From an uncultured Candidatus Saccharibacteria bacterium (GTDB taxonomy: Bacteria > Patescibacteriota > Minisyncoccia > Phycocordibacterales > UBA9973): DNA of 52,168 nucleotides. This document shows, in pieces, positions 6,803-33,743 of the stretch. The stretch lies in contig CAYVZI010000002.1 in the NCBI GenBank assembly GCA_964456475.1, forward strand, positions 52,659-104,826, given 5' to 3'. The notes under the pieces were generated by a model. The model made no database searches and had not been told where the DNA came from. It worked only from the letters and a program-made list of their open reading frames with translations. The translations under genes were made by a program, and so were the position numbers. Position 1 is the stretch's first letter, and every line of letters starts with the position of its first letter.

Positions 6803-8611
6803 TTATTGTGTTTCCTTCCACGAATCCACAGTATACGAACCTGAAGGGCCAAGTACAAAGTTCACGTTCGCAAGACCGGTATCATAGGTCAAAGTTGCGC
6901 TATTAGACATGCTAATCCTGTAAGCTACAGCCTCCTTGGCACCAGCTGTGTTAGAAAAAGTGATTGTTCCATTTGGTGCTACAAGAATAACCGTACCTGC
7001 ACTGTTTGCAACATTAATAGCCGAAGATGACGATGAGGTGGTGAGCATCATCATATAACTACCCGTAGTACCTGACCCAGCGAATGCAGCCGAGTTTGAT
7101 GTTGAAACAGTACCATCAGAGATAATCATTCCACTTCCCGTTCCATATCCGGACGCGAGCTTCACGATAGCATTATTTGAGAGAACAATATTCCCCGTCA
7201 CCCAAAGCGTTCCCGACAACGTAAGCACGCCATTGTTACTGACATACAAATCACCAACAATCTTTTTTGGGCCAAGCGTAGCCGCAGAAGTACCAGAGAG
7301 CGAATAGCTACCAGTGAGAGTTCCACCAGCAAGTGCATCCGCCTTCCAGTCAGTTATTTGTGATGTTGAAATCGGAAAATTGAGCGGTGTTGGATCAGCA
7401 AGTGATGTATTACAACTCTTATTGTTTCCGCTTCCTGTTTGACAATAGAGGCTTCCTGCAATCGTTGACCCAGTGACTGTATGAGCCCAGGCATTACCTA
7501 CACTACCGGTTCCAATTGTCATTCCGCTAATAGTAGAGTTTACCCCACCGAGCGAGAGTTTGAAAAATCCATCGAGTCCAGATGGGCTCGTATTGTTCCA
7601 AGTGGTCGTTCCATATGTTCCCGTCTTTCCAAGACCGCTGGCATACCCAGCACTGTTTGCGCCCCAAATATAATAGTTTGAGGCATTTGCACTTCCATCG
7701 AGCACGACCCAGTATGTCGTACCGGCAGTAAGCGTCACGTTCGGAGAAAGTGCAACCGTTGCCCAACCATATGATGTAGTCACGGTCGATGCAGAAATTG
7801 TCCCCGTAGTAAGAGAACTTGATGAGGGCTTTCCAGAGGAATCACTGGTGATTCGCACAGTGAGATTACTCGGACTGCCCACTTTTTTTATATACACTTC
7901 CACCTGTGTGGCAGTATCAGAAATACTTGTTTGAAAACTCTGAGCTGCATCTTGTGTAGCAGAAGCATTCGCAAACGTAATCGAATGAGAGGGTGTACCC
8001 GTATCGTTGACTTGGTCAACGACTTGAGTGCTACGATCAGCGGCAAAAGCCGCTCCGGTGATTGAAGCACTCCCCGTTCCTGAAATATCACCATTCGCAT
8101 ATACATTACCGATAATCTGAGAAGAATTTGCCATAGAGAGTCCTCCATTCCCTACCTGCATACCATAGTTAAAAGAAACACCGGCTCCAGTGGTAACGAC
8201 GACATCGACAGCTCGATTGAAATCAGAGACATCACCAATACTGGTAATTTGTTTTTGTCCTCCGCTGAGATTGGTGATTGTCGTGACCGTCGAAGAACTT
8301 CCGAGCACAAGAGTAACACTCGAAGGTAGCGTCAAATTATTTTTCAAACGGTAGAATGCATCTTCGGCTCCAGACTCAGACAAAAAATAACTCTGTCGTG
8401 AAGTAAGAGCATCATTCGCAATTTTATACTCGCGAGCTGCCGGACCAGTGAGACCAAGAACAACAAGTACTGATGCCAAAATAAAGAAAATAAGCGAAAT
8501 CATCATCGCCGCTCCGCGCTCGTGGTTTGGTATTAGGTGTTTGGTGTTTGGTGATAGCTTATCCAAAACCATTTTTATTTTTTCTATGAAATTATTTTTT
8601 GAGTTTTGCAT
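6803..8611 (-). CDS. PilX/GspK-like minor pilin with large Ser/Thr/Gly-rich passenger (candidate adhesin)
   Basis: ERG|AAMMISLIF pilin-like helix lacking E5, FLSESGAEDA motif, last gene of the minor-pilin cluster, beta-rich C-terminus. Confidence 0.75.
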   Translation of the reverse strand: MQNSKNNFIEKIKMVLDKLSPNTKHLIPNHERGAAMMISLIFFILASVLVVLGLTGPAAREYKIANDALTSRQSYFLSESGAEDAFYRLKNNLTLPSSVTLVLGSSSTVTTITNLSGGQKQITSIGDVSDFNRAVDVVVTTGAGVSFNYGMQVGNGGLSMANSSQIIGNVYANGDISGTGSASITGAAFAADRSTQVVDQVNDTGTPSHSITFANASATQDAAQSFQTSISDTATQVEVYIKKVGSPSNLTVRITSDSSGKPSSSSLTTGTISASTVTTSYGWATVALSPNVTLTAGTTYWVVLDGSANASNYYIWGANSAGYASGLGKTGTYGTTTWNNTSPSGLDGFFKLSLGGVNSTISGMTIGTGSVGNAWAHTVTGSTIAGSLYCQTGSGNNKSCNTSLADPTPLNFPISTSQITDWKADALAGGTLTGSYSLSGTSAATLGPKKIVGDLYVSNNGVLTLSGTLWVTGNIVLSNNAIVKLASGYGTGSGMIISDGTVSTSNSAAFAGSGTTGSYMMMLTTSSSSSAINVANSAGTVILVAPNGTITFSNTAGAKEAVAYRISMSNSATLTYDTGLANVNFVLGPSGSYTVDSWKETQ

Positions 8612-21543: not shown

Positions 21544-21575
21544 CAAAAACAAACGCCCAATGGCGTTTGTTTTTG
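21544..21575 (+). terminator. Intrinsic terminator after clpP
   Basis: caaaaacaaacgcc-caat-ggcgtttgtttttg. Confidence 0.8.
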
Positions 21576-21596
21576 TATTGGGGTAAAATCGGAAGT

Positions 21597-23879
21597 ATGA
21601 ATGAGATGGAAAAAATGCTTCTCAGTGGCAATACAACACAAAAGAATATTAATGGAAGCCTTTTAGAAAAAGAAAGGGTAACTCCTATAGCTGAATCAAA
21701 AAACGAGTACAATGAACAAAAAGAACAGCTTCTTGCGTATCTTGAAAAAAAAGAGATTGTTGTATCAAAAAACCCGTACGTCCTAGATATCGACAAATTT
21801 AAAAATATAGTAAAATCCAGAATACAAATAAAGCAGAAATTTTTGAATCAGGATGAAATTATAAATGCCTTAGTTGGAGTAAAGTGCATATCAAAGGCAG
21901 ATATAGAATCCAACAAAACCGAAGATTCCACTTTAATTATAGAAAAACCCCTGCTTAATATACCCACAAATATTGAAGACGTCTTGAAGGGAAACATTGC
22001 TAATCCTGGCTATTTAAATCCTTGGGAGATACAAGAGAATACAAAATGGGATATACGCATTCCTCTTAGCGAAGGCAAAAATACAACCTTGGCGGAAATT
22101 TTTATCGCTCAAAAACTTAATGAACTTGGTGCACACAGAAACAATATGGGCGATTTGGAAATTATCGATCCAGCCAACAACAAACCAAAAAAGATTTCTG
22201 GATATCTTTTTCAAAAGTTAATCAAAGAACTCGGCGGAAAAGAACTGCGTATCCGAACAACACTACCCAATGAAAAAGAATACCAAACAGGCTTTGGATC
22301 AAGGGCTTTTTCTGAAAAAGTTTTACCCAATCTTTTTTCATCAGGAATTTTAAAAAACGAGGATTTTAAAACTATAGGCGGAAGTGCAGTCAGCGAATTA
22401 TACGCCATAAACGAACGGAAATTGGACCCCAAAAGTCCATACATAGGACTATCTGGTAAATATGGTTTTACACGATACTATCTCGGTAGAGACAAAATTG
22501 TCGGAACAAAAACTGAAACAAACGAGTTTATGAGCGTTATACAACTAGATCCAAATACCTTCGGCATTGTCGAAAAACTCCCTGGCAGAAATAGCCGACT
22601 CTTATACACATTCGACGGATTAAATGAGCAAGAAATAGCAAATCTACGAAGCAAGACTTCTGCTAATCTTTTATCAAAAAGTATCGAACCCACAGAAGCA
22701 AAGATTTCTGCATATTCCCTGACCGGTGGCGCAGAAATGAAAAAAAGAATCAGAGAATACAAAATCACAGAATTATTTCCTCAAAAAAAAGATGAGACTA
22801 GTGAAGTGTACGCCACACGACTATCTAATCTTAGTGATACGGATTATGTTTTAAATAATTTTAGAGAGTTTTTTAAGGACGCAAATATTGGGGTCCATAA
22901 CCTGTCTTGGATAGATCAACTTTCCATTGCTAATGCGATTTTGGAAGAAAAAAACAAAAAAAGGCTGGTTTCCTTCGCGTCAGATTATAAACTTGATGGA
23001 GTCAGAACATTTCTTTCCCTCGAACACGGTGGCAAAGAAATGAGTGACAAAATCCTTACGCTTGGTGAAAAATTACCGAGGCAAAACGCTGAATTGTTAT
23101 TCAAAAAATATGGTGAAATCATTGACGAGGTCAACAATGTGGCTGAATACTTTTCTGTATCACTCGCAAAAAATGCCACCCCAGAAATCATCGAACAAAC
23201 AAAGGAACAACTCCTCATTAAAGGCAAAGAAATGCTCGCCTACTATGCCGACCATGCAAAGACATGCGCCGAACAAGAGTGTGTTGATCTCGGCACTGAG
23301 CTCGAGACACGTCTAAAAGATTTAAAAGCATCAGTTGTATTACTTGGTTCTGCAGTCAAAACACTCGTCGAACGCGGTGAGTTCAATCTGCAAGATTTGA
23401 AAGATATCGAAATCTCATACGACGAGCATGGCTTGCAAGAAAAAGACAAAGCGGCAATCAGTGCAATGTCACACGAGAACACAAAACAGTATCCTGAAAA
23501 ACTTCGCGATTATTGGCGTGGTACCGCCGAGCAAGCACTCGAACATCCTGCTCCGGGCGAAACATTCATCAGTGTCAAATACCAAGGCGAAATCGTAGTT
23601 GTCATGCGTGTGATTCCACAAAACGACGGGTCTTTTTATGGTGCATCATTCAACGTCAATCCAAACATTCGTGGGTCACGCATCGGCACCGAACTCATGA
23701 AAGAGGTCATCGACAACTATACGAAACAAGGAGATTTTGTTGCAGATTGTTATGAGCACAATCCGATGCTCGAAAACTACACGGGCAAATTCGGTTTTGA
23801 AATAATCGACACCATCGAAAACTATCACGACACTGGTGCAACAATCAAAAAAATTATTCGTCGAAAGCAGGCGAACTAG
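21597..23879 (+). CDS. Large hypothetical protein with C-terminal GNAT-like acetyltransferase domain
   Basis: YGASFNVNPNIRGSRIGTELM acetyl-CoA binding motif A, then NPMLENYTGKFGFE motif B; N-terminal ~600 aa unassigned. Confidence 0.7.
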   Translation: MNEMEKMLLSGNTTQKNINGSLLEKERVTPIAESKNEYNEQKEQLLAYLEKKEIVVSKNPYVLDIDKFKNIVKSRIQIKQKFLNQDEIINALVGVKCISKADIESNKTEDSTLIIEKPLLNIPTNIEDVLKGNIANPGYLNPWEIQENTKWDIRIPLSEGKNTTLAEIFIAQKLNELGAHRNNMGDLEIIDPANNKPKKISGYLFQKLIKELGGKELRIRTTLPNEKEYQTGFGSRAFSEKVLPNLFSSGILKNEDFKTIGGSAVSELYAINERKLDPKSPYIGLSGKYGFTRYYLGRDKIVGTKTETNEFMSVIQLDPNTFGIVEKLPGRNSRLLYTFDGLNEQEIANLRSKTSANLLSKSIEPTEAKISAYSLTGGAEMKKRIREYKITELFPQKKDETSEVYATRLSNLSDTDYVLNNFREFFKDANIGVHNLSWIDQLSIANAILEEKNKKRLVSFASDYKLDGVRTFLSLEHGGKEMSDKILTLGEKLPRQNAELLFKKYGEIIDEVNNVAEYFSVSLAKNATPEIIEQTKEQLLIKGKEMLAYYADHAKTCAEQECVDLGTELETRLKDLKASVVLLGSAVKTLVERGEFNLQDLKDIEISYDEHGLQEKDKAAISAMSHENTKQYPEKLRDYWRGTAEQALEHPAPGETFISVKYQGEIVVVMRVIPQNDGSFYGASFNVNPNIRGSRIGTELMKEVIDNYTKQGDFVADCYEHNPMLENYTGKFGFEIIDTIENYHDTGATIKKIIRRKQAN

Positions 23880-24654
23880 ACTTTTTTTCTTCTCCAGCAA
23901 CCGGAGTAGAATTTTTCCAATATCCGTCAAAAATAATTTTCATAGTTTCTGCAATTTCTTTGTCTTCAATAATAAGACCCACAATTTTTTCTTTTGAAAA
24001 TGTAAGCATACTCGTCTTGTTATCGTACGTCAAAAGTGCGGTTGGAAATGATTTGACTCCAGAAGCTGTTCGAAACGAAGTGAGTTCAGTTCCCTTTTTT
24101 GCATACTCAGCATTGAAGTCATTATCGGAGACAATCATGCGTTTCTGTATTCCATTCGCAACTCTCTTCTTCAGATGTCGTACTGTCTCCTCAGGAAACT
24201 GGTTCATTGCAAGCTGCATGTCTGTAATCTGGCGAATTTCCTTGTCTACAGAAGGAAGATCCCCCGTTATTTTCAGTATGGCTTCTTCTCCTTCATAAAA
24301 CTGCACGTTTGGCTTACCGGCGATCAGATTGTATTTCGAAGCAAGCGATCCGAGTGAATGCTCGAGCATATCTTTGGCAAGGGCCAATTCTTTTTCCTTA
24401 CGTTCAATATTGCCCATAAGAAGGGACGGATGTCCGGCCACGAACACAGCCACGCTTCCCTCTCCACCCCGCTTCTCTACTAGACCGATAGCCTCAAGCT
24501 GTTCCAAGACCTTGTACGTAAGGCCTCTTTTGATGCCAGTCCAGTCGGCAAGTGCACTTGCTCTCTGTGGCCCCTTGTCCAATAGAGCCTCGTACGTAAG
24601 TGCCTGCTCTTCAGAGAGTCCAGCTTCTATAAGTAGATTGTTGCTGTTTTGCAT
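23854..24654 (-). CDS. TrmB-family HTH transcriptional regulator (copy 1)
   Basis: AGLSEEQALTYEALL..G..ASALA..TGIKRGLTYKVLEQL..IGLV wHTH; PNVQFYEG linker. Confidence 0.88.
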   Translation of the reverse strand: MQNSNNLLIEAGLSEEQALTYEALLDKGPQRASALADWTGIKRGLTYKVLEQLEAIGLVEKRGGEGSVAVFVAGHPSLLMGNIERKEKELALAKDMLEHSLGSLASKYNLIAGKPNVQFYEGEEAILKITGDLPSVDKEIRQITDMQLAMNQFPEETVRHLKKRVANGIQKRMIVSDNDFNAEYAKKGTELTSFRTASGVKSFPTALLTYDNKTSMLTFSKEKIVGLIIEDKEIAETMKIIFDGYWKNSTPVAGEEKKSSSPAFDE

Positions 24655-24676
24655 ATGAATATCGTATCATATTCGT

Positions 24677-24700
24677 CTTTGTCATACAAACATGACAAAG
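24677..24700. promoter_or_regulatory. Palindromic operator candidate upstream of TrmB copy 1
   Basis: ctttgtcat-N6-atgacaaag perfect 9-bp arms. Confidence 0.55.
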
Positions 24701-24767
24701 TGGATAACCTAATTATCCTTATTTATAAAGCTTTTTTAGCGATTTTAGATTAAATAATTATGTTATG

Positions 24768-24796
24768 TTGACAAATCATAATATAAATGCTATAGT
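24768..24796 (+). promoter_or_regulatory. Strong sigma70 promoter driving orphan array 1
   Basis: TTGACA-N17-TATAGT with extended -10 TG. Confidence 0.8.
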
Positions 24797-25390
24797 ATAA
24801 GCAAGAAAGTTCATTGATTAGGTGATTCGAGAAAAGTGCGGAGCAGTGAATGGTCAGGGGAGCCAAAAATCGCCATAACTAAGAACTGCTACGAGGAGAG
24901 CTTCTCTCGCATCATGTTTCCAAGATGGAGGCACAAGAATACAGGCTGGAAACCCATATTACTTCTGCCGTTACCCCATCACATCGGACACCAAACAGAT
25001 CCACCAAGGATTCGTTAGGACATCCAGTGAAAGAAAGAGACTAACCCCCTTTTGCTTTCACAAATGTCTTTGCGAAGGAGCTTCGTAACAAAGAGGAGAG
25101 AGAACTACTTTGAAACGAAGAGTATAGATGAAGGAGAGAGACCTGCACTATAGCAAAGAAGTGAACCTTAAAAACTAAACATGCCCGGAGACAATACTCG
25201 CGAAAGCGTATTATTTACTCCGGCAGATTCTGCACAAAACACAAACCTGTCATTCCGGAGTACACATCCGGAATCCATGCGTATTTTGTTGTGTGTAGAT
25301 ATGTTCCGTAAAGAAATTCGCGGAGTGCATAGTTGTTTTAGTTCTTTCAGAACGCCAGCATGGTTTTCTGAAAGAACTAAAACAAAAAAT

Positions 25391-25579
25391 ATGGAAAAAA
25401 TAATATTCGTAATACTGTTTCTAGTTATAGGGATAGTATTTACTATAGCCTCAATCATGGGGCTATACAAAATATGTAATAGGGTGCCCAGCAAGGCACC
25501 ACCATTCCCCGAAATATACGGGGAAACGAAAATTGGCCGAATTCTGGCCAATATAATATCCCTTGTTATTGGGATATAG
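25391..25579 (+). CDS. Small membrane protein, array 1 ORF1
   Basis: MEKIIFVILFLVIGIVFTIASIMGLYK..., ATG follows a 20-bp stem and A-rich tract. Confidence 0.6.
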   Translation: MEKIIFVILFLVIGIVFTIASIMGLYKICNRVPSKAPPFPEIYGETKIGRILANIISLVIGI

Positions 25580-25680
25580 GCGTTCATTGTTTGCTTTAAT
25601 ATTTAGCAGTATAGCAATGAACATTTGTCCCCGGATGACACAAACTGCCGGCGGTCTGATTTCTGCGAGAAGAAATCGAT

Positions 25681-25763
25681 GGGTAAAAAGGGTAAACATA
25701 TTCCCCGATTGGAAACAATCGGGGCCTTATTCAGCTCACGAAATTTTCGTTGGCTGATTGGGA
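25681..25763 (+). repeat. Intergenic module A (partial: hairpins 1 and 2)
   Basis: ccccgattg/caatcgggg then cttattcagctcacgaa..tcgttggctgattggga. Confidence 0.85.
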
Positions 25764-25859
25764 GGAAAGCCAAAATGTGCAAGCCTGTCGTGTACCGCGC
25801 CGACATAAAAAAAGCGGGATAGTAATACGTGTGCGAAGATCAGTACCACACTTACTCGA

Positions 25860-26690
25860 ATGGAAAGCAACTCGATATATTGCTTTTGCGGCGCCATGTC
25901 CAAGAAAAATACATGGCAACAATTCCGAGGCTCTCATATCGGGAGGTCAAACCAAACCCAGGCTCGGCTGGTGATTTTATTTATGACACAGTCATCAAAT
26001 ATTTTCGGAAAAAAAGTAGTTATTAGTAAAAAATCCCAAGAAATTGGGAGATATGTTAATTACAAAATTCAAATCGGGAGCGACGACCCGATTTTTGTTT
26101 CGAAGGATGCCGCCCGACAAGGACGGTGGTCCTTCGACACAAAAAGTTTTTTCAAAGGGGGTTCTTCCCCTTTGGACCAAGACGAATTGGAGATCATTCT
26201 CCAATTCGTAAAATTCTTAATCGTCTTCCAAGCGTATGAGTATACGCTTGGAACAAGGAGGAATTTCCTCCTGTCAGTAGAGACCACTGGGGTCGAAAAG
26301 GCCTCCGACGGTTACCATGACTTTGACTACCGAAAGGAAGTTAAGCTGGAGTCGGTAAACTCCAATTGGGGCAGCCGCTCCGCAATGAGTATCTACGCCC
26401 AATTCGACGGTCATGTGACCAACGAAGGAGGCAATCAATTGTTGGAGCGGTATTATTCGGCTCCAATACCTTTTATCAATATGACGCTTCAGGCAACTGA
26501 AGAGTCAATGATACGAAGGCTCGGTGAGCCAATCGGTCAAATGGAAATCTTTAACCCTCGGCCGAGGGAAAAGGAATACATTGAAAACTTCGGCACGGCC
26601 GAAGTAATTGATGGAAACAACCCGCTGGCAACGGCGTGGTTTGTTTTAAAAATTTTGCCAACATACTATATGTTGGCAAATATGAGGTAG
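25860..26690 (+). CDS. Hypothetical protein, array 1 ORF2 (start may be 25986)
   Basis: 276-aa open frame; family not recognised. Confidence 0.6.
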   Translation: MESNSIYCFCGAMSKKNTWQQFRGSHIGRSNQTQARLVILFMTQSSNIFGKKVVISKKSQEIGRYVNYKIQIGSDDPIFVSKDAARQGRWSFDTKSFFKGGSSPLDQDELEIILQFVKFLIVFQAYEYTLGTRRNFLLSVETTGVEKASDGYHDFDYRKEVKLESVNSNWGSRSAMSIYAQFDGHVTNEGGNQLLERYYSAPIPFINMTLQATEESMIRRLGEPIGQMEIFNPRPREKEYIENFGTAEVIDGNNPLATAWFVLKILPTYYMLANMR

Positions 26691-26846
26691 GGGTTTAGGG
26701 TTACAAAAAAAATGGCTCCGATTTTCTAATCGGAGCCCTTATTCAGTTCACGAAGCAATTCGTTGGCTGATAGGGATTCATACCTAGAATTTTGGTTCAC
26801 TTAGTTTTTCAATTTTGGAAAGTTAAGTGAACCAAAATTTAATAAA
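26691..26846 (+). repeat. Intergenic module B (hairpins 1, 2, 3)
   Basis: ggctccgatt/aatcggagcc; cttattcag..ctgatagg; aattttggttcactta/taagtgaaccaaaatt directly before ATG. Confidence 0.9.
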
Positions 26847-27071
26847 ATGTTGATCAGAAAAATCCACCTGTATAAGGTGGAACACCGCTACCACCATAGT
26901 GTAGCGGGATATTTAAATGGGCCGAGATCCTATTGGACAGCCCTGAAACCCGACCTCAGCCGGGTGTACGTAGTTGAGGAAAAAAACGACACCCTCGTAA
27001 GAGGGTGGGTTTGGTTTGTATTTGGGGCACTAGCCTCAGGCGCTGTTTGCTTTTTGACAGCAAACATCTAA
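26847..27071 (+). CDS. Small protein with C-terminal TM helix, array 1 ORF3
   Basis: 74 aa, ends WVWFVFGALASGAVCFLTANI. Confidence 0.6.
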   Translation: MLIRKIHLYKVEHRYHHSVAGYLNGPRSYWTALKPDLSRVYVVEEKNDTLVRGWVWFVFGALASGAVCFLTANI

Positions 27072-27162
27072 CCATCTGTCACCGAATGACATTAACTGCC
27101 GGCGCGTATTCTGAAATTGCGAGAAGTGAGTAAGAAAAGTACAAACTCAAAAATTTATTGTG

Positions 27163-27696
27163 ATGAACAAGAAAATTTTTAGTTTTGATGCCGAGACCAA
27201 CGGTCTTTGGGGCCGGGCGTTTTCGATTGCCGCTATCGTCTATGACGAGAACGGTGCGGAGACGATCCGCTTCATTGGCCGGTGTCCAATCGAAGGCGAA
27301 ACAAACAGCTGGGTAGCTGAAAATGTTTTGCCAAAGATGATGGACATCGCCGAGTCTCACGGCTCGTATGATGAACTGCTAAAAGCTTTTGCGGATTTTT
27401 ACAAATCCAACAAAGCCGATGCAGATATCATTGTGCATATGGGCGTGCCTGTGGAGTCAACACTTCTCAAGGATACTCATAGCCGTGGGTATATCGGCGA
27501 TTGGGACGGTCCGTTCCCCCTCATCGACATTGCAGGCAATCTGCAACAAGCCGGTGAGAATCCTACTTCAGTCGACGAATACGTCGCCAAGTATGGATTG
27601 GAGGTGCGCGATTTTGGCACGACACACAACCCGCTGTATGACAGCGAAGTTGCTGCAGTAGTGTATCGCCACCTTCAGGGACGGATTACTCAGTAA
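27163..27696 (+). CDS. DnaQ-like DEDDh 3'-5' exonuclease
   Basis: FSFDAETNG ExoI, PLIDI, THNPLYD ExoIII. Confidence 0.8.
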   Translation: MNKKIFSFDAETNGLWGRAFSIAAIVYDENGAETIRFIGRCPIEGETNSWVAENVLPKMMDIAESHGSYDELLKAFADFYKSNKADADIIVHMGVPVESTLLKDTHSRGYIGDWDGPFPLIDIAGNLQQAGENPTSVDEYVAKYGLEVRDFGTTHNPLYDSEVAAVVYRHLQGRITQ

Positions 27697-27762
27697 TCGG
27701 TCAGGCATTTGAGTGAGACTCCGAGCATGATACCAGCTTGGGAACAGAAGGTATCACAATAA

Positions 27763-27920
27763 GGGGTTACGGGTTATCGTATTTCCCCGATTGAGTAATC
27801 AATCGGGGCCTTATTCAGCCCACGAAATTTTCGTGGGCTGATAGGGATTGCTTACTTTCTGGTTGTTTTAGTTTTTTCAGAATGCCTAATTGGTTCTTTG
27901 AGAAAACTAAAACAACAAAA
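27763..27920 (+). repeat. Intergenic module C (hairpins 1, 2, 3)
   Basis: ccccgattg/caatcgggg; cttattcagcccacgaa/ttcgtgggctgatagg; gttgttttagtttt/aaaactaaaacaac before ATG. Confidence 0.9.
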
Positions 27921-28202
27921 ATGAAAGAAAGATCAATGAGCGAACTTGAATTCGCTCAGATAGTTTTTGAAAATGGGCTCTTTCTAGAGAGTCCATTAAA
28001 TTCAAAATCCTTTATGGCAGAAAATGCCACAGAGGAGAGCAAGGTGACTGAGAAACATGGGTGCTTCTCGTTTATGGGATCAATATACTTGATCTCATTC
28101 TCGGTTTCCTACGGGGAACCGAGTAAATCATGCAATCCCAGCAGTGGGTATTGCAAGGAGACAAAAATAATATCCGAGATTACCCGGATTATTTTACCCT
28201 AA
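27921..28202 (+). CDS. Hypothetical protein, array 1 ORF5
   Basis: 93-aa ORF starting MKERSMSELEF after module C. Confidence 0.55.
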   Translation: MKERSMSELEFAQIVFENGLFLESPLNSKSFMAENATEESKVTEKHGCFSFMGSIYLISFSVSYGEPSKSCNPSSGYCKETKIISEITRIILP

Positions 28203-28358
28203 GGGTTACTATGGTTTAAAAAACGGCCGAACAGAATATCGTTCGGCCTCTTATTCAGTCCGCGAAGCAATTCGTTGGCTGATAGGAATTCATACCTATA
28301 ATTTTAGTTCACTTAGTTTTTCAAGTTTGGAATATTAAGTGAACTAAAATTCAAAAAT
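28203..28358 (+). repeat. Intergenic module D (hairpins 1, 2, 3)
   Basis: ggccgaac/gttcggcc; cttattcag..ctgatagg; aattttagttcactta/taagtgaactaaaatt before ATG; closely similar to module B. Confidence 0.9.
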
Positions 28359-28544
28359 ATGAAAAACACAAAGCAACTTAAAAACGCGGCTTACAATGCT
28401 GCGTATGAAATTATTTCCTCAAGTTATTTTTTTGAGGGAACAAAAATTTTGGCTATGAAAGTAGCCAAAGATACAGGTTACAGGTATTGGTACAGCCAAT
28501 ACTTAAAAGCCTACTACGATTGCAGGCGAGAAAATGCCTCGTAG
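28359..28544 (+). CDS. Small Tyr-rich hypothetical protein, array 1 ORF6
   Basis: 61-aa ORF immediately after module D, followed by gggttgggtta and a terminator-like hairpin. Confidence 0.55.
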   Translation: MKNTKQLKNAAYNAAYEIISSSYFFEGTKILAMKVAKDTGYRYWYSQYLKAYYDCRRENAS

Positions 28545-28761
28545 GGTTGGGTTAATATATTTGAGGGGAAGTAGTTCCCCTCTCTTCACTCGCGCTTCTT
28601 CTGAAGCTGTGTGTCATTCCACAAAAGTTTCCTAAAGGAAACTTTTGTGGAACAAATCTCTCTCCTCGCACATAGTATCAATCTATATTCAAGGAGCGCG
28701 AATGAAGAGAAGTATAAAACAATAGAAAAAAAGCCGTTGCGATTCGCAACGGCTTTTTGTT

Positions 28762-29304
28762 TTATAAAAATATTTTTACGTGGTGCCAAATGGCAAAAGG
28801 ATTCATTGCGCAGTGCCAGAGCCAAACATCGACATTTTCGCCTGTATCATTTTTTGTCGTAAACAAACGAGCATGCATGGTGACCGACACATACTCATCA
28901 TGAAATGATGTATAGCCAATTATGTTCGGCAATCCATACCTTAGCAAATCTCCTTTCCCGTTTCCTGGTTGAGCCCTACCGAGGACACTTGCTCGCCAAA
29001 TAATTGATTCGTAGTTCGGAAAATGCGTTCCAAAATTCACAGCGCCCGTGTTCCAATCTTTTATTTGTCCACAAATCTCTTTGTCACTCATTACTTTTTC
29101 GTCATACAAGGTACCGTGCAGGTCTTCAGTTTCCATTATTTTGAACGGTGTGCGTTTGTCTACAAAACTTGCAAAGTCTTCACTGAGACTAAAAATGTGT
29201 GCTGGAAATAGCTTCTCGGCATTCCAAGGCTCAAAAACAGAAGGTATGTGGGTGATTTTTCCATTTTTCCCTGCGTTTATAACAACACTCGATTCATTGA
29301 TCAT
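28762..29304 (-). CDS. Hypothetical protein
   Basis: 180-aa ORF with protein-like composition; family not recognised. Confidence 0.6.
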   Translation of the reverse strand: MINESSVVINAGKNGKITHIPSVFEPWNAEKLFPAHIFSLSEDFASFVDKRTPFKIMETEDLHGTLYDEKVMSDKEICGQIKDWNTGAVNFGTHFPNYESIIWRASVLGRAQPGNGKGDLLRYGLPNIIGYTSFHDEYVSVTMHARLFTTKNDTGENVDVWLWHCAMNPFAIWHHVKIFL

Positions 29305-29555
29305 AAGCGGTCATTTTAGAAAGGTGAAATTTACTTATTTTTACTCCTCTTACAGACGGCTGTCAAACTTACCTCTTCTTTCTCGACATTATCAAGATAT
29401 TCTGGTATTCTGAAAATATCGAACTTTAATATATTAGTTTGCCCGTTCGTATAGAAAAAGCCTTGTTTGTCACTCAAACCATTATGAAATTCGGAACTTC
29501 CCTTTGTGCCTTCAATAGCAATCCTGTCATCTTGATTCGAATCAATCGAGCTTTT

Positions 29556-29680
29556 TAGAAATTTCAGAGACGAGTACAGTTCAAGGCGTAAGCGAGGCTT
29601 GCGACCAAGGTGTAGTAATCCTACTCCGCGGGAGCAAACGAGCGAAACAACGAAGAAATGTGCCGTATATGAAATTTCTA
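29556..29680 (+). repeat. 125-bp structured dispersed repeat, copy 2 (rny leader)
   Basis: Perfect 11-bp terminal arms tagaaatttca/tgaaatttcta; colinear with the other copies. Confidence 0.9.
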
Positions 29681-29707
29681 ATCTAAACGGCTGGCTGGTC
29701 GTTTACC

Positions 29708-31237
29708 ATGTCTACATTTACTATATTGCTGATTGCAGCAGGCGCCCTCGTAGCGGGTCTTTTTTGCGGATACTATCTCCGCAAGATCACCGCGCTTGGA
29801 CAGCGTCGCTCAATCGAAATCGACATCAAACAGATGTTGGTTGGTGCCAAAGAAGAAGCGGCTCGCATCACTGATGAAGCCAAGAAAAAAGCTGAGGAAA
29901 CCGAATCTGACCTTCGTATGATGGAACGTCAGAAGAACGAAGACTTCAAAAAGACGGAAGATCGCTTGATTAAAAAGGAAGAATTGCTCGATGCTCGTCA
30001 AACCGAAATCGACAAGGAAACCGAGCTCCAAAAGATGAAGATCGAGGAGATCAAGAAGATCAAAGAAAAGGGCGACGCCATGCTCGCAGAGCGTGTTGCC
30101 ACACTCGAAAAAGTAGCTGGTCTTTCACGTGAAGACGCAAAAAACGAACTCGTTCGCGAAATCGAACGCGAGTCTGAAGAAGACCTCATGATTCGCATGC
30201 AGAAGCTTGAGCAAAATTCTCAAGAACGCATGGATCGCCGTGCAAAGGATATCCTTGCAACCTCTATCCAGCGTCTCGCCTCTTCGACTGCAGCTGAGAT
30301 TATGACGACCAACGTCGCCATCCCATCTGACGACATCAAGGGCAAGATCATTGGAAAGGAAGGACGCAACATTCGCGCATTCGAACGCGCAGCCGGTGTT
30401 GAACTCATCGTCGATGAAACTCCTGGAGTCATCATCATTTCAGCCTTTGATCCTGTACGCCGACAAATCGCTCGCGTCGCTCTTGAGAATCTCATTCTCG
30501 ATGGACGCATTCAGCCAGCCAAAATCGAAGAAGTGGTAGAAAAAGCCAAGGAAGACATCAATAAGATCATCAAAGAAAAGGGTGAGCAGGCAGTGTACGA
30601 ATGTGGAATCTTCAATTTCGACCCACGCATCATCGCCATCTTGGGACGCCTCTACTTCCGCACATCATACGGACAAAACGTGCTTCAGCACTCAATCGAG
30701 ATGACACACATTGCCGGAATGATTGCCGAAGAGCTCGGTGCCGACGTTGCAATCGCCAAGCAAGGTGCACTCGTACACGACATCGGAAAAGCGCTCGACC
30801 ATGAAGTACAAGGTACGCACATCGATATCGGTATCCGCATCCTCCAGAAATTCGGTGCTGATCCTCGTGTGATTCAAGCAATGAAATCTCACCACGACGA
30901 CTGTCCACATGAAACAATCGAAGCCGTAATCGTGCAGACTGCCGACAATATTTCCGGCGGACGCCCAGGTGCACGACGCGACAGTGTTGAGAACTACCTC
31001 AAGCGCTTGCACGAAATGGAAGCACTCGTAAACGCTTTCCCAAATATCGACAAGTCATACGCGCTCTCTGCCGGCCGTGAAATCCGCATCTTCGTCACTC
31101 CAGAAAAAGTCACCGATGTCGAAGCAAAAGAAATGGCCCGTGAGATAGCGAAGAAAATGGAAACTGAACTCAAGTACCCAGGCGAAATCAAAGTGACGAT
31201 GATAAGAGAGACTCGAATCATCGAGTACGCCCGTTAG
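29708..31237 (+). CDS. rny: Ribonuclease Y
   Basis: N-terminal TM, coiled coil, KH domain (GKIIGKEGRNIR), HD domain (LVHDIGKA), YPGEIKVTMIRETR. Confidence 0.98.
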   Translation: MSTFTILLIAAGALVAGLFCGYYLRKITALGQRRSIEIDIKQMLVGAKEEAARITDEAKKKAEETESDLRMMERQKNEDFKKTEDRLIKKEELLDARQTEIDKETELQKMKIEEIKKIKEKGDAMLAERVATLEKVAGLSREDAKNELVREIERESEEDLMIRMQKLEQNSQERMDRRAKDILATSIQRLASSTAAEIMTTNVAIPSDDIKGKIIGKEGRNIRAFERAAGVELIVDETPGVIIISAFDPVRRQIARVALENLILDGRIQPAKIEEVVEKAKEDINKIIKEKGEQAVYECGIFNFDPRIIAILGRLYFRTSYGQNVLQHSIEMTHIAGMIAEELGADVAIAKQGALVHDIGKALDHEVQGTHIDIGIRILQKFGADPRVIQAMKSHHDDCPHETIEAVIVQTADNISGGRPGARRDSVENYLKRLHEMEALVNAFPNIDKSYALSAGREIRIFVTPEKVTDVEAKEMAREIAKKMETELKYPGEIKVTMIRETRIIEYAR

Positions 31238-31356
31238 TCTCTTCAGACATTACAAAAGACGCCCAATAGCATTAGGGGCGGCTTTTGTGATATTAAAAAA
31301 GCACACTCTTTATTTTAAGGTGTGCTTTTGTGAACAATTTTATGTTTCTCTTAATC

Positions 31357-31794
31357 TTATTTTCTATACAATGCTATCCTTGCTCCTTTACGAAATCCAT
31401 CTGGTGCTGAGATTCTTGTTATTTCAGAAGCTTTTCCGTCATTGTGGAATTTATAAAAACACATGCAACGAACGTCCATTCCGCGAAACCCCCTGCCATG
31501 ATCGCAATACAACAGACTTCCAATAAAATGGATGTACTCATCTGTATTTTTTGCATTAGCTGGAATTTCTTCTGGATGATTCATCAGGAAATCATAAACG
31601 GTTGCATTCAAAGGAATTTTTTCCTTTTGCATCTCTAAATATTTCACAAGATCATCCCAACTTGTATCCTCTTTGCATACATATAATTCAAAGTTTTGGG
31701 AATTCCACTCGATTACCCCATGTTTATCATGACTAAATAACATATCATTTGTGCGAAGATTCGGTACTTCATTGGTATTGATTATGTGTTTCAT
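31357..31794 (-). CDS. Hypothetical protein, array 2 ORF3
   Basis: 145 aa; PLNATVYDFLMNHPEEIP..IHFIGS resembles a recurrent uncharacterised CPR family (from memory, unverified). Confidence 0.7.
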   Translation of the reverse strand: MKHIINTNEVPNLRTNDMLFSHDKHGVIEWNSQNFELYVCKEDTSWDDLVKYLEMQKEKIPLNATVYDFLMNHPEEIPANAKNTDEYIHFIGSLLYCDHGRGFRGMDVRCMCFYKFHNDGKASEITRISAPDGFRKGARIALYRK

Positions 31795-31800
31795 ATATTT

Positions 31801-31855
31801 GTTTTAAAAGGTTACCCAAATTTCCCAGAGAGAATCTCGGGTAACCTTTTAAAAC
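31801..31855. repeat. Long palindrome directly upstream of ORF 31794 start
   Basis: gttttaaaaggttaccc/gggtaaccttttaaaac, 17-bp perfect arms. Confidence 0.8.
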
Positions 31856-31870
31856 TTTGGAAAAGAGCTT

Positions 31871-31920
31871 CTGTTTCGTCCTTTTGGACTCATCAGGCAA
31901 AGCAGTTCACTTTGCGACAG
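31871..31920 (-). ncRNA. Type III hammerhead ribozyme HHR-1
   Basis: Minus strand: CUGUC^GCAAAG-UGAACUG-CUUUGC-CUGAUGA-GUCC-AAAA-GGAC-GAAA-CAG; full core, three stems, GUC cleavage triplet. Confidence 0.93.
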
Positions 31921-32015
31921 TGCGGTAGAATTATCTCCACCGCTTTTATGTTAGGCACGTTTACGAAAGGCTGTGTCCATTTACCTTTTGCTCTGTCCCC
32001 AAGAGCCGGGCATCT

Positions 32016-32414
32016 TTAGGCTTCGACGGCCGTTTTCTGGAATTCAACTTTCTGCAAAAAATCTATCAGGTACTGATCGACAAAACCGGAAGCCCCGTTT
32101 TTGTTTATTGATCCGTCCCAGATGTCGTCTTTTGATTCTGACGTTGAATACAAAAATGTCTTTGCCGTGTCGTTGGCTAATTTCACCCGCAAGGTCAGCT
32201 GAGGGCCCTGCTCTTCCTGGGAAGTCCATGTTTTTCCGAGGACGACCAGGCAATTCTTCTGTCGTTGCGCTTTCAGCACAATTTCCTCGGAATTGCTGGA
32301 GATGAAAATTCTCTCGGCCACTTCCTGAGAAAAATGTGCCGCAACGGCTTGTTTGATCGTGCGGACATCGCTCGCCAAAGTCTGGCCGATAAAAATACAA
32401 GATATGTTCCTCAT
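32016..32414 (-). CDS. Hypothetical protein, possibly a degenerate receiver (CheY-like) fold, array 2 ORF2
   Basis: Start MRNISCIFIG at 32414 (the longer call runs through HHR-2); alternating beta/alpha pattern, GPQL..VK...TFLYS..DG.INK. Confidence 0.6.
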   Translation of the reverse strand: MRNISCIFIGQTLASDVRTIKQAVAAHFSQEVAERIFISSNSEEIVLKAQRQKNCLVVLGKTWTSQEEQGPQLTLRVKLANDTAKTFLYSTSESKDDIWDGSINKNGASGFVDQYLIDFLQKVEFQKTAVEA

Positions 32415-32438
32415 GCTATTAAATTTTTTGAAAGAATT

Positions 32439-32490
32439 ACTGTTTCGCTCTTTTGAGCTCATCAGGAGAAGCAATACACTTCTCGACAGT
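32439..32490 (-). ncRNA. Type III hammerhead ribozyme HHR-2
   Basis: Minus strand: ACUGUC^GAGAAG-UGUAUUG-CUUCUC-CUGAUGA-GCUC-AAAA-GAGC-GAAA-CAGU; compensatory stems relative to HHR-1. Confidence 0.94.
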
Positions 32491-32552
32491 GCCATGATTT
32501 TTTACATGGCCTTGATTTATAAAGCATTTTACGATTAGGCTGCTTCGTTTTC

Positions 32553-32999: not shown

Positions 33000-33743
33000 A
33001 TGAAAAACGAGAAACTATACGGAATATTGAAAGAAATAGGGCTAACCGACGATGAATCGGCTGTGTATTTGGCGAGCCTTTCGCTTGGAATTACGACTGT
33101 GCTCAAAATAGCCAAGGCTACAAACATCAAAAGAACGACAATCTATGGGATTATTGATTCGCTTAAAGAAAAAGGTCTTATGCGCATTGAGCTCAAAGGA
33201 TTAAAACAGCTCTATGCAGTCGAAAGCCCTGAGCGCTTGAATCTCATGCTCGAACGCAAAAAAGACGAGTTTGCAAAAAATCTGCCAGAATTCATGGCTC
33301 TCTATAAACTCGATGGGGGCGAAAGCGTCATCAAGTACTACACTGGCCTTCAGACAATGAAAGATATCTATCGTGACACACTCAAAGAAATAAAACCACA
33401 TCAAGACTATCTTGTAATCGCAAACGAAGAAAAATGGAGAAGCTTGGATCCGGGATTTGCTCTCTCGTATACAGAAGAACGAGCAAAACTACCGATAAAG
33501 ACTCGAATGCTCTTCCAAGACTCCCCTGTTGCACGTGAAGAAAAGAAATTTGAACGCAACTTCAACCACGAAATCAAAATCCTTCCGGAGAGCACCCCGC
33601 TCAACGTCGACACTCTCCTTCTCCCGAACAAACTCATCACATTTGAAATGACCCCGCCGTACATGACGGTAGTGATAGAAAACAAAAGCATCATTGAACT
33701 CCACCGCGAAATGTTCGAGATAATTTGGAAATCAATCAAGTAA
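33000..33743 (+). CDS. TrmB-family HTH transcriptional regulator (copy 2)
   Basis: IGLTDDESAVYLASL, IAKATNIKRTTIYGIIDSLKEKGL, SVIKYYTG. Confidence 0.88.
   Translation: MKNEKLYGILKEIGLTDDESAVYLASLSLGITTVLKIAKATNIKRTTIYGIIDSLKEKGLMRIELKGLKQLYAVESPERLNLMLERKKDEFAKNLPEFMALYKLDGGESVIKYYTGLQTMKDIYRDTLKEIKPHQDYLVIANEEKWRSLDPGFALSYTEERAKLPIKTRMLFQDSPVAREEKKFERNFNHEIKILPESTPLNVDTLLLPNKLITFEMTPPYMTVVIENKSIIELHREMFEIIWKSIK

What the first reader, a model, noticed from the sequence alone, without database searches (positions are those of the whole stretch)
27809..27850. Bulged hairpin 2 occupies the same slot as the hammerheads: candidate new RNA cleavage element
Seen: in array 2 the layout is hairpin, hammerhead, long palindrome (31801-31855), ATG. 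In array 1 it is hairpin, CTTATTCAG-hairpin, long palindrome, ATG. Hairpin 2 is the most sequence-conserved part (four copies near 25725, 26738, 27809, 28250), with a 12-bp upper stem, one unpaired U and a 5-bp lower stem, followed by GGGATT/GGAATT. It does not match hammerhead, twister, pistol or HDV cores by eye. Inference: positional equivalence suggests an analogous processing function, either a novel self-cleaving RNA or a nuclease or recombinase recognition site with an extrahelical base.
Basis: inference. Interest (0 to 1): 0.72.

Follow-up and report, generated by a model that had tools for sequence, protein, structure and literature searches.

The report
Conserved bulged RNA hairpin replacing hammerheads
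A small bulged RNA hairpin, unmatched in RNA databases, sits between genes of variable operons in tiny "candidate phyla" bacteria in the slot that hammerhead ribozymes fill elsewhere, so it is probably a new mRNA cutting or stabilising signal, though more likely cut by an enzyme than by itself.

Summary
Four copies of the hairpin lie on the + strand at 25725-25762, 26737-26775, 27809-27846 and 28249-28287. Each directly follows a variable GC-rich hairpin 1, inside one predicted operon of small ORFs.

With a covariance model I found 24 distinct copies, plus 2 weaker ones, in 10 loci from Patescibacteria and Saccharibacteria metagenome genomes.
- 94% of cells pair, and 11 of 17 pairs show compensatory changes.
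- There are 65 G·U cells against 5 A·C cells, and every copy is sense to its genes. The structure therefore belongs to the sense strand, and most likely to the RNA.
- The bulged U is kept in 23 of 24 copies. The "GGG" of GGGATT is simply the covarying 3' strand of the lower stem.

In three arrays (L001, L129, L144) the hairpin and type III hammerheads occupy the same slot after hairpin 1, on the same strand. Positional equivalence is therefore well supported.

Rfam 15, phage, plasmid and IMG/VR searches gave no match, and no RNA-seq data were available.

The element is an almost fully paired hairpin without a conserved unpaired core. I therefore favour a nuclease-dependent processing or stability signal (about 0.4) over self-cleavage (about 0.08) or a DNA recombination site (about 0.12). 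It is a new RNA motif of untested function.

The parts
27809..27846 (+). Hairpin 2, copy C (the finding). Lower stem 27809-27813 with 27842-27846, bulged U at 27814, upper stem 27815-27826 with 27830-27841, loop 27827-27829.
   Evidence: R2 57.1 bits, E 1e-11; the antisense strand scores only 26 bits.
25725..25762 (+). Hairpin 2, copy A. It has a U·U mismatch in the lower stem and a C·U mismatch in the upper stem, and no long palindrome downstream.
   Evidence: 52.4 bits.
26737..26775 (+). Hairpin 2, copy B.
   Evidence: 59.9 bits.
28249..28287 (+). Hairpin 2, copy D.
   Evidence: 59.5 bits.
27785..27808 (+). Hairpin 1 of module C: a GC-rich stem whose sequence varies between modules, abutting hairpin 2 with no spacer. 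The equivalents are A 25703-25724, B 26714-26736 and D 28225-28248.
   Evidence: Every module folded shows a hairpin directly 5' of hairpin 2, with 0-1 nt between them.
27765..27778 (+). GGGGTTACGGGTTA motif just after the stop codon of the upstream ORF. Related copies: 25693-25709 (GGGTAAAAAGGGTAAAC), 26691-26704 and 28204-28218.
   Evidence: The motif precedes hairpin 1 in 10 of 26 hairpin-2 modules and 3 of 11 hammerhead modules, against a background of 0.006 per 75 nt.
27861..27917 (+). Long AT-rich palindrome between hairpin 2 C and the likely start codon at 27921. The equivalents are B 26790-26838 and D 28302-28349.
24768..24796 (+). Best promoter-like site for array 1 (TTGACA-17-TATAGT with TG), downstream of the divergent TrmB gene.
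   Evidence: 11 of 12 matches. This is a consensus match only.
28728..28758 (+). Strong bidirectional terminator-like hairpin closing array 1.
   Evidence: 14 pairs followed by a T-run.
23854..24654 (-). TrmB-family wHTH regulator, divergent from array 1.
   Evidence: PF01978, E 7e-11.
33000..33743 (+). Second TrmB-family regulator, divergent from array 2.
31868..31923 (-). Type III hammerhead of array 2, directly preceded by a hairpin 1 and followed by a long palindrome and the ATG at 31794.
32437..32492 (-). Second type III hammerhead of array 2, directly preceded by a hairpin 1.

Best explanation
Hairpin 2 is a cis-acting structured RNA element that punctuates polycistronic mRNAs of TrmB-linked variable operons in Patescibacteria.

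Each gene unit ends with its own GC-rich hairpin 1. Immediately after it comes either a type III hammerhead or hairpin 2. I propose that hairpin 2 does by recruitment what the hammerhead does by itself: it directs an endonucleolytic cut at or next to the conserved junction (5'-UUAU(U)/3'-AUWG, bulged U8, U5·G48 wobble).

The cutting enzyme would be a host enzyme.
- RNase III is the first candidate, because the element is a 17-bp helix that can stack on hairpin 1.
- RNase P is a second candidate, because a U precedes a helix of about 12 bp.
- RNase Y is a third candidate.

After the cut, the upstream mRNA ends in protective hairpin 1, and the downstream mRNA starts at or inside a stable 5' structure.

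Shown here: the structure, its strand, its conservation and its interchangeability with hammerheads. Inferred: that cleavage occurs, where it occurs and which enzyme does it.
For: - Real and conserved: 24 distinct copies in 10 loci across Parcubacteria-like, Saccharibacteria and higher-GC lineages.
- Structure under selection: 94.3% of cells pair, and 11 of 17 pairs change on both sides. The covariation score is 0.496 against 0.239 for shuffles (0 of 500 reach it) and at most 0.158 for slid partners.
- Sense-strand structure, most likely RNA: 65 G·U cells against 5 A·C cells. The sense strand is more stable in 24 of 24 copies, on average -16.2 against -9.2 kcal/mol. Sense CM scores are 28-66 bits against at most 26 bits antisense.
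- All copies are sense to the flanking ORFs and lie inside operon-like arrays. For array 1 a promoter-like site lies at 24768 and a terminator at 28728.
- Same slot as hammerheads, after hairpin 1 and on the same strand, in L001, L129 and L144. The hammerhead cut lies 6 nt after hairpin 1. The bulged U lies 5-6 nt after hairpin 1.
- In L118 the hairpin sits 10-25 nt before the ATG, and in two copies its 3' lower strand is the Shine-Dalgarno sequence. This fits a role in the mRNA.
- Precedent: self-cleaving ribozymes have been suggested to process polycistronic transcripts, and ribozyme-neighbouring structured RNAs that did not self-cleave are on record (PMC6765202).
Against: - No transcript data exist. 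No RNA run holds the window or L118, so neither transcription through the element nor any cleavage is shown.
- RNase III normally needs little sequence, so the strong conservation of UUAUUCAG/CUGAUWG is not explained by RNase III alone.
- There is no single-stranded linker between hairpin 1 and hairpin 2 for RNase Y.
- No T-loop or CCA is present for RNase P.
- The element could act without being cut, as a stabiliser or a protein-binding site.
- The alignment used for the largest covariation count was fitted to the model. The MAFFT-based count on 14 sequences agrees, however.
Confidence: 0.4

Rival explanations
1. Hairpin 2 is a new, very small self-cleaving ribozyme that substitutes for the hammerhead.
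For: It occupies exactly the same slot as hammerheads in three arrays. This is the same guilt-by-association logic that led to the discovery of twister, pistol, hatchet and twister-sister (PMC6765202). The junction nucleotides are conserved while the helices covary. A conserved U·G wobble and a conserved bulge could mark an active site.
Against: - The element is one nearly perfect hairpin with a single bulged base, a variable loop of 3-7 nt and no conserved unpaired core, junction or pseudoknot partner. All known natural self-cleaving classes need such features (established knowledge).
- The flanks are not conserved.
- No Rfam ribozyme family matches even at E up to 10 on a 201-nt query.
- Other ribozyme-associated motifs have failed to cleave.
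Confidence: 0.08
2. Hairpin 2 is not cut. It is a 5'-UTR or inter-cistronic regulatory or stability hairpin. It would protect the downstream mRNA from 5' exonucleases, or bind a conserved regulatory protein that controls translation or read-through of each gene unit.
For: - It is always in the sense strand upstream of an ORF.
- In L118 it lies next to, or overlaps, the Shine-Dalgarno sequence.
- Conserved base pairs in a helix plus a bulged base are typical of protein-binding operators (established knowledge: MS2/PP7 operators, TAR, IRE).
- Patescibacteria encode RNase Y; the gene lies in the window at 29708-31237.
Against: - A 5' protective hairpin works only at a 5' end, which again needs a cut or a promoter. 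Promoter-like sites exist only for copies B and D.
- The distance to the ATG ranges from about 10 to about 150 nt, which is odd for a translational operator.
- Interchangeability with a self-cleaving ribozyme points to cleavage.
Confidence: 0.25
3. Hairpin 2 is a DNA-level recombination site. It would be a folded single-strand site with an extrahelical base, analogous to integron attC or REP/RAYT elements, that shuffles gene cassettes.
For: - Arrays are mosaics. Related strains in other metagenomes carry different ORFs.
- Similarity breaks at the edges of hairpin 2 (26737, 27847), and one contig joins copy A to the flank of copy B, skipping 1017 bp.
- L131 and L133 differ in cassette content.
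- attC sites likewise conserve structure and extrahelical bases rather than sequence (established knowledge).
Against: - Hammerheads, which are RNA devices, fill the same slot.
- The fold is favoured on the sense strand in 24 of 24 copies, whereas attC recombines through the bottom strand.
- There are no RYYYAAC/GTTRRRY cores (sequence).
- No integrase is adjacent to any array. The only tyrosine recombinase seen lies about 16 kb away, next to rpsO, in conserved synteny.
- Orientation is always sense (6 independent arrays or more), unlike REPs.
- Breakpoints at the edges of conserved linkers are what ordinary homologous recombination between repeats would give.
Confidence: 0.12
4. Hairpin 1 plus the U-rich 5' strand of hairpin 2 (YUUUAUU) is merely a leaky intrinsic terminator, and hairpin 2 is a by-product or a second, tandem terminator.
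For: Hairpin 1 is GC-rich and is followed by CUUAUU or CUUUAUU. One copy (D) passes a simple terminator scan on the + strand.
Against: - Hairpin 2 is followed by AGGGAUU-type sequence, not a U-run.
- In hammerhead modules hairpin 1 has no U-tract at all.
- Covariation shows that hairpin 2 itself is selected.
- Three of the four window copies fail the + strand terminator scan.
Confidence: 0.07

Closest known systems
Type III hammerhead ribozymes in bacterial and phage intergenic regions (Rfam RF00008)
   Same: Hairpin 2 has the same genomic slot, strand and neighbours: after hairpin 1, before the 5' UTR and ATG, in the same arrays. It has a similar size (about 40-55 nt). The presumed role, separating cistrons, is the same.
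   Different: There is no three-way junction, no CUGANGA...GAAA core and no Rfam match. Hairpin 2 is a single bulged helix, so any cleavage would probably need a protein or RNP.
RNase III processing hairpins between phage T7 early genes (R1.1 type)
   Same: Both are intergenic hairpins in a polycistronic mRNA with a small internal loop or bulge that splits the helix into upper and lower stems. In T7, processing leaves a 3' hairpin that stabilises the upstream mRNA (established knowledge).
   Different: Hairpin 2 is shorter (17 bp), has strongly conserved junction sequence across phyla, and is always coupled to a separate hairpin 1. Cleavage is not shown.
Ribozyme-associated structured RNAs that did not self-cleave (Weinberg et al. 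2015 and 2017, as summarised in PMC6765202 and PMC5737381)
   Same: Both are conserved, covarying RNA motifs found near self-cleaving ribozymes, with unknown function.
   Different: None of those motifs, which are expected to be in Rfam, matches hairpin 2. Hairpin 2 is simpler and is found in Patescibacteria arrays linked to TrmB regulators.
Integron attC sites
   Same: Both are imperfect palindromes with an extrahelical base at the boundaries of small, variable, same-orientation ORFs. In both, structure is more conserved than helix sequence.
   Different: Hairpin 2 lacks the R''/R' core sequences and an adjacent IntI. Its fold is favoured on the coding strand, and hammerhead ribozymes alternate with it.
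REP/BIME extragenic palindromes
   Same: Both are short imperfect palindromes within operons that can stabilise upstream mRNA and promote rearrangements.
   Different: REPs are species-specific, genome-wide, occur in both orientations and carry a 5' GTAG for RAYT. In the loci examined, hairpin 2 is array-restricted, always sense, conserved across phyla and lacks GTAG.

Membership tests
Hammerhead ribozyme (types I-III) | Three-way junction with the conserved core CUGANGA ... GAAA and an NUH cleavage triplet | tested here: not met
   Rfam cmscan at E up to 10 on 201 nt lists no hammerhead over 27809-27846. The same models find the array 2 hammerheads. By eye, CUGAUAG is present but no stem II or GAAA follows.
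Twister, twister-sister, pistol, hatchet, HDV-like, hairpin, VS and glmS ribozymes | A match to the family covariance model (multi-helix fold, pseudoknots, conserved core) | tested here: not met
   No such family appears among 68 weak matches at E up to 10 or in the 14-kb scan.
Any Rfam 15 family | A score at or above the gathering threshold | tested here: not met
   Only generic miRNA-like hairpin matches appear, far below threshold, and mostly on the neighbouring palindrome.
Structured RNA under selection (generic criterion) | Compensatory base changes beyond controls, with strand specificity | tested here: met
Integron attC | R'' RYYYAAC and R' GTTRRRY cores at the ends of the palindrome | tested here: not met
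   The ends are YYUUAU... and ...AUWGRG in all 24 copies.
Integron attC | An adjacent integron integrase (IntI) with attI and Pc | tested here: not met
   Arrays are flanked by TrmB regulators. The only Phage_integrase gene lies next to rpsO in conserved synteny, about 16 kb away.
Integron attC | The recombinogenic fold is on the bottom strand (antisense to the cassette ORFs) | tested here: not met
   The sense strand is more stable in 24 of 24 copies, with 65 G·U against 5 A·C cells.
Intrinsic (Rho-independent) terminator | A GC-rich hairpin followed directly by a U-run | tested here: not met
   Hairpin 2 is followed by AGGGAUU-type sequence and is not listed by the scan.
RNase III substrate | About two turns of dsRNA, often with an internal loop, and staggered cleavage that leaves a 2-nt 3' overhang | tested here: inconclusive
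   The helix has 12 + 5 bp with one bulge and can stack on hairpin 1. Cleavage is not testable with these tools.
RNase P minihelix-type substrate | A helix of about 12 bp preceded by N(-1), preferably U, with a 3' RCCA or a T-loop mimic | tested here: inconclusive
   The upper stem has a modal length of 12 bp (range about 11-15), and U8 precedes it in 23 of 24 copies. There is no CCA and no 7-nt T-loop.
REP / RAYT elements | A 5' GTAG, both orientations, many genome-wide copies and a RAYT gene | tested here: not met
   There is no GTAG, and all copies are sense and lie within arrays. The genome-wide count is not testable because only partial loci are held.

The most novel reading that the evidence does not exclude
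Hairpin 2 is the smallest natural self-cleaving RNA yet seen, or the dedicated substrate of an undescribed site-specific RNA nuclease. It would be one of several interchangeable 'punctuation' RNAs that cut cassette-like operons of candidate-phyla bacteria into single-gene mRNAs. The others are the hammerhead and at least two further conserved hairpin classes seen in the same slots.
Probability: 0.1. Interest if true: 0.9.

Novelty: new variant of a known kind. Interest (0 to 1): 0.62.

Why it matters
The biological role of bacterial hammerheads and their relatives is still unclear (PMC6765202). Here a structurally unrelated, much simpler RNA alternates with hammerheads in an otherwise identical module, in organisms with tiny genomes.

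This gives a direct handle on what the slot requires. If hairpin 2 is cut by a host RNase, then hammerheads in these arrays are simply protein-independent processing sites. That would support the idea that mRNA punctuation is their function. If hairpin 2 cuts itself, it would be a new ribozyme class.

Either way, the TrmB-linked, strain-variable operons with modular RNA boundaries found in these searches appear to be an undescribed organisation in Patescibacteria.

Tried and rejected
- Exact-pattern scans of IMG/VR gave only chance hits in coding DNA. BLAST against phage and plasmid collections gave nothing.
- The single genome-collection and metagenome-collection scans gave few loci. I switched to fetching contigs through the TrmB neighbours.
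- A home-made structural scan for bulged hairpins was too noisy (545 hits) and was dropped in favour of covariance models.
- RNA-seq look-ups for the window and for L118 found no runs.
- Literature searches for hammerheads in Patescibacteria, Saccharibacteria or CPR found nothing relevant. PMC4509812 is not held.
- Considered and rejected:
  - A variant or degenerate hammerhead. CUGAUAG and CGAA are present, but no stem II or GAAA follows. A partial resemblance of the L001 downstream flank to a hammerhead core is not shared by other copies.
  - A K-turn or box C/D. UCAG/CUGA are Watson-Crick paired and covary.
  - A TrmB DNA operator. Covariation with G·U pairs and variable loop length argue for RNA.
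  - A sigma-70 promoter. TTGGCT-16-TATAAT is found only in copies B and D.
  - A CRISPR-like repeat. The units between copies are ORFs.
- Pfam and PADLOC gave nothing for the cassette ORFs.

Full report
**1. Observation**

Reading 25000-32500 and aligning the four modules confirms four + strand copies of CTTATTCAG-N4-CGAA-loop-TTCG-N3-GCTGAT-AGG. The helix coordinates are 25725-25762, 26737-26775, 27809-27846 and 28249-28287.

A pattern built on the conserved letters matched copies B and D exactly and nothing in 100 shuffles.

RNA folding gives the described shape for every copy: a 5-bp lower stem, one unpaired U and a 12-bp upper stem. The z-scores run from -4.8 to -7.2. Copy C is perfect. 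Copies A, B and D carry a C·U mismatch in the upper stem.

Each copy abuts a GC-rich hairpin 1 of unrelated sequence. B, C and D are followed by a long AT-rich palindrome and then the ATG. Copy A is not.

The array 2 hammerheads are real: Rfam Hammerhead_3 at 31868-31923 and 32437-32492 on the minus strand, with E 1.7e-5 and 2.2e-6 and an intact core. Each is likewise preceded by a hairpin 1.

**2. Context in the window**

Array 1 looks like one operon.
- The best sigma-70-like site lies at 24768-24796.
- A strong terminator-like hairpin lies at 28728-28758.
- In between are six small ORFs without Pfam or PADLOC matches.

Divergent from array 1 is a TrmB-family wHTH regulator (23854-24654, minus strand). 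Array 2 is divergent from a second, distantly related TrmB regulator (33000-33743, plus strand). RNase Y (29708-31237) lies between the arrays. The source is a wastewater metagenome.

**3. Relatives**

One exact-pattern scan of the genome collection found the motif in a Saccharibacteria MAG (L001) and a Parcubacteria MAG (L002). The metagenome scan found L118, a higher-GC 98-kb contig.

A covariance model built from 8 sequences revealed six copies in L118. They form an array of small ORFs in which hairpin 2 lies 10-25 nt before each ATG, and in two copies its 3' lower strand is the Shine-Dalgarno sequence.

Fetching contigs through TrmB homologs showed a recurring pattern in Patescibacteria: ClpP, RNase Y, a variable ORF array and a TrmB gene, often several times per locus.

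A second model (R2) found further copies in L129, L131, L144, L148, L149 and L152. In total there are 24 distinct copies at E below 5e-4, plus two weaker ones.

IMG/VR, phage and plasmid collections have none. Rfam 15 has no matching family even at E up to 10 on a 201-nt query. Literature searches found no description.

**4. Is it a structure, and on which strand?**

On a MAFFT alignment of 14 copies, 94.1% of cells pair and 8 of 17 pairs change on both sides. The covariation score is 0.398, against 0.231 for shuffles (0 of 500 reach it) and at most 0.183 for slid partners.

On the 24-copy model-fitted alignment, 94.3% of cells pair and 11 of 17 pairs change on both sides. The score is 0.496 against 0.239 for shuffles and at most 0.158 for slid partners. 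This alignment leans towards the model, but it agrees with the MAFFT result.

Both stems covary, including the lower stem (C-G to U-A and A-U at columns 3-50 and 4-49).

There are 65 G·U cells against 5 A·C cells. The sense strand folds better in 24 of 24 copies, on average -16.2 against -9.2 kcal/mol. CM scores are 28-66 bits on the sense strand against at most 26 bits on the antisense strand. All copies are sense to the flanking ORFs.

The fold therefore belongs to the sense strand, most simply to the mRNA.

**5. What is conserved**

- 5' side: U5, U6, A7, the bulged U8 (23 of 24), U9, C10, A11, G12.
- Apical pairs: A19 and A20 with U34 and U35.
- 3' side: U43, G44, A45, U46, W47, G48.
- U5·G48 is a wobble pair in 19 of 24 copies.
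- The loop varies in length (3-7 nt) and in sequence.
- The 3' 'GGG' is the covarying lower-stem strand, and the next three bases are only weakly conserved.

The 'invariant GGGATT' does not hold.

**6. Equivalence with hammerheads**

In L001, three intergenic modules on one strand share the form [GGTTT..GGTTT]-hairpin 1-X-a conserved structured 5' UTR-ATG. X is Hammerhead_3 at 4416-4362 and 466-412, and hairpin 2 at 1842-1796.

In L144, the sister strain of the window (TrmB 98% identical), hairpin 2 at 8947-8902 and hammerheads near 7190 and 6437 lie in successive slots of one array.

In L129, a hammerhead and a weak hairpin-2 variant (E 0.078) lie in one intergenic region.

All 11 hammerheads seen are preceded by a hairpin; in L129 9005 it lies some 20 nt upstream. 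The hammerhead cut falls 6 nt after hairpin 1. The bulged U lies 5-6 nt after hairpin 1.

Positional equivalence is therefore shown. Functional equivalence is inferred.

**7. Mechanism**

The anatomy is a single, nearly perfect helix with one bulged base and no conserved junction, pseudoknot or loop. This is unlike every known natural self-cleaving class (established knowledge), and ribozyme-neighbouring motifs that fail to cleave are on record.

I therefore favour a nuclease-dependent processing site (0.40). In this reading a host endoribonuclease cuts at the conserved junction. The upstream mRNA is left capped by hairpin 1, and the downstream mRNA is left with a structured 5' end, as after hammerhead cleavage.
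- RNase III fits the helix-bulge-helix shape and the T7 precedent, but it does not explain the sequence conservation.
- RNase P fits U(-1) plus a helix of about 12 bp, but the element lacks CCA and a T-loop.
- RNase Y lacks a single-stranded target unless the weak lower stem opens.

Rival explanations:
- An uncut stabiliser or protein operator (0.25).
- A DNA recombination site (0.12).
- A ribozyme (0.08).
- A terminator by-product (0.07).

**8. DNA-level evidence**

I laid contigs from other metagenomes on array 1.
- Related strains carry different ORFs.
- Similarity breaks at 26737 (the 5' edge of copy B) and at 27847 (the 3' edge of copy C).
- One contig joins copy A to the flank of copy B, skipping 1017 bp.
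- L131 and L133 are 99.7% identical up to a conserved intergenic hairpin and then diverge.

This shows cassette-like turnover with the conserved linkers as boundaries. It is expected from homologous recombination between repeats. It does not by itself indicate a site-specific system. No recombinase is linked to the arrays, and the attC core sequences are absent.

**9. Verdict**

This is a real, conserved, sense-strand-specific (most likely RNA) motif, absent from Rfam 15 and from every collection and paper search I ran, which alternates with hammerhead ribozymes in TrmB-linked variable operons of Patescibacteria. Its interpretation is partly supported: processing is plausible, self-cleavage is unlikely, and a recombinase site is unlikely.

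Noticed in passing
window 23854-24654 (-), 33000-33743 (+); L127, L129, L131, L137, L144, L149, L152: Each variable ORF array is paired, usually divergently, with a TrmB-family wHTH regulator of about 250 aa. Some loci carry 3-5 such units in 20 kb. In L137 the partner operons hold toxin-antitoxin, RhuM and HATPase genes, so the units look like an accessory or defence-island organisation in Patescibacteria.
   Followed up: partly
window 24600-29400 against runs X2-X5; L131 against L133: The gene content of the arrays differs between closely related strains, while the flanks and intergenic linkers are kept. Breakpoints fall at the edges of hairpin 2 or the palindromes.
   Followed up: partly
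window 26691-26704, 27765-27778, 28204-28218; L148, L149, L152, L144, L001: A telomere-like GGGTTAGGGTTA motif (variants GGGGTTACGGGTTA and GGGGTTGGGTTA) sits right after the stop codon and before hairpin 1. It occurs in 10 of 26 hairpin-2 modules and 3 of 11 hammerhead modules, against a background of 0.006 per 75 nt. Its function is unknown.
   Followed up: partly
L131 about 9491 and 7314 (-); L129 about 9105 (-); L133 about 9491 (-): A second conserved hairpin class, AGATTTTTGAGAAC-loop-GTTCTCAAAATGAAA, also directly follows a hairpin 1 in the same kind of slot.
   Followed up: no
L131 about 8138, 5824 and 5439 (-): A third recurring intergenic motif, CCGAGACAYGAAAGACGG-N-AAAAGAnnUCGAGUAGUA, has no Rfam match. 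It is another candidate processing element.
   Followed up: no
window 25625-25700 and 27070-27140 (+): Two related stretches (UGUCNCCGNAUGACA..AACUGCCGGCG...UGCGAGAAG) lie downstream of the ORFs at 25392-25579 and 26847-27071. They have no Rfam match at E up to 10.
   Followed up: no
L001 about 540-500 (-) and L002 about 2470-2420 (-): A shared element, CTGAGTTGGCAGG-hairpin-AACAGTCCAAC, lies upstream of hairpin 1 in a Saccharibacteria MAG and a Parcubacteria MAG.
   Followed up: no
L001 4350-4243 and 1780-1668 (-): A conserved structured 5' UTR of about 110 nt (CGAGCAYCCCTGCTC...GTCCGTCGCAAGAYGGAAAGTCC...GAGCAGGGGTGGGA) follows both a hammerhead and hairpin 2 before different ORFs.
   Followed up: no
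window 31868-32492 (-): Two same-strand hammerheads flank one small ORF (about 32016-32415). The excised RNA would carry a 5'-OH and a 2',3'-cyclic phosphate. Whether it is circularised was not examined.
   Followed up: no
window 26763-26790 and 28275-28302 (+): Promoter-like TTGGCT-16-TAGAAT and TTGGCT-16-TATAAT sites have their -35 box in the 3' arm of hairpin 2. They occur only in the near-identical linkers B and D.
   Followed up: partly
window 21567-28760: The block made of a GNAT-domain protein, a TrmB gene and array 1 lies between ClpP and RNase Y here and in L144, L148 and L152. It is absent in L129, L131 and L135, where ClpP is followed by RNase Y with at most one small gene between. 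It is an insertion or deletion polymorphism among relatives.
   Followed up: partly
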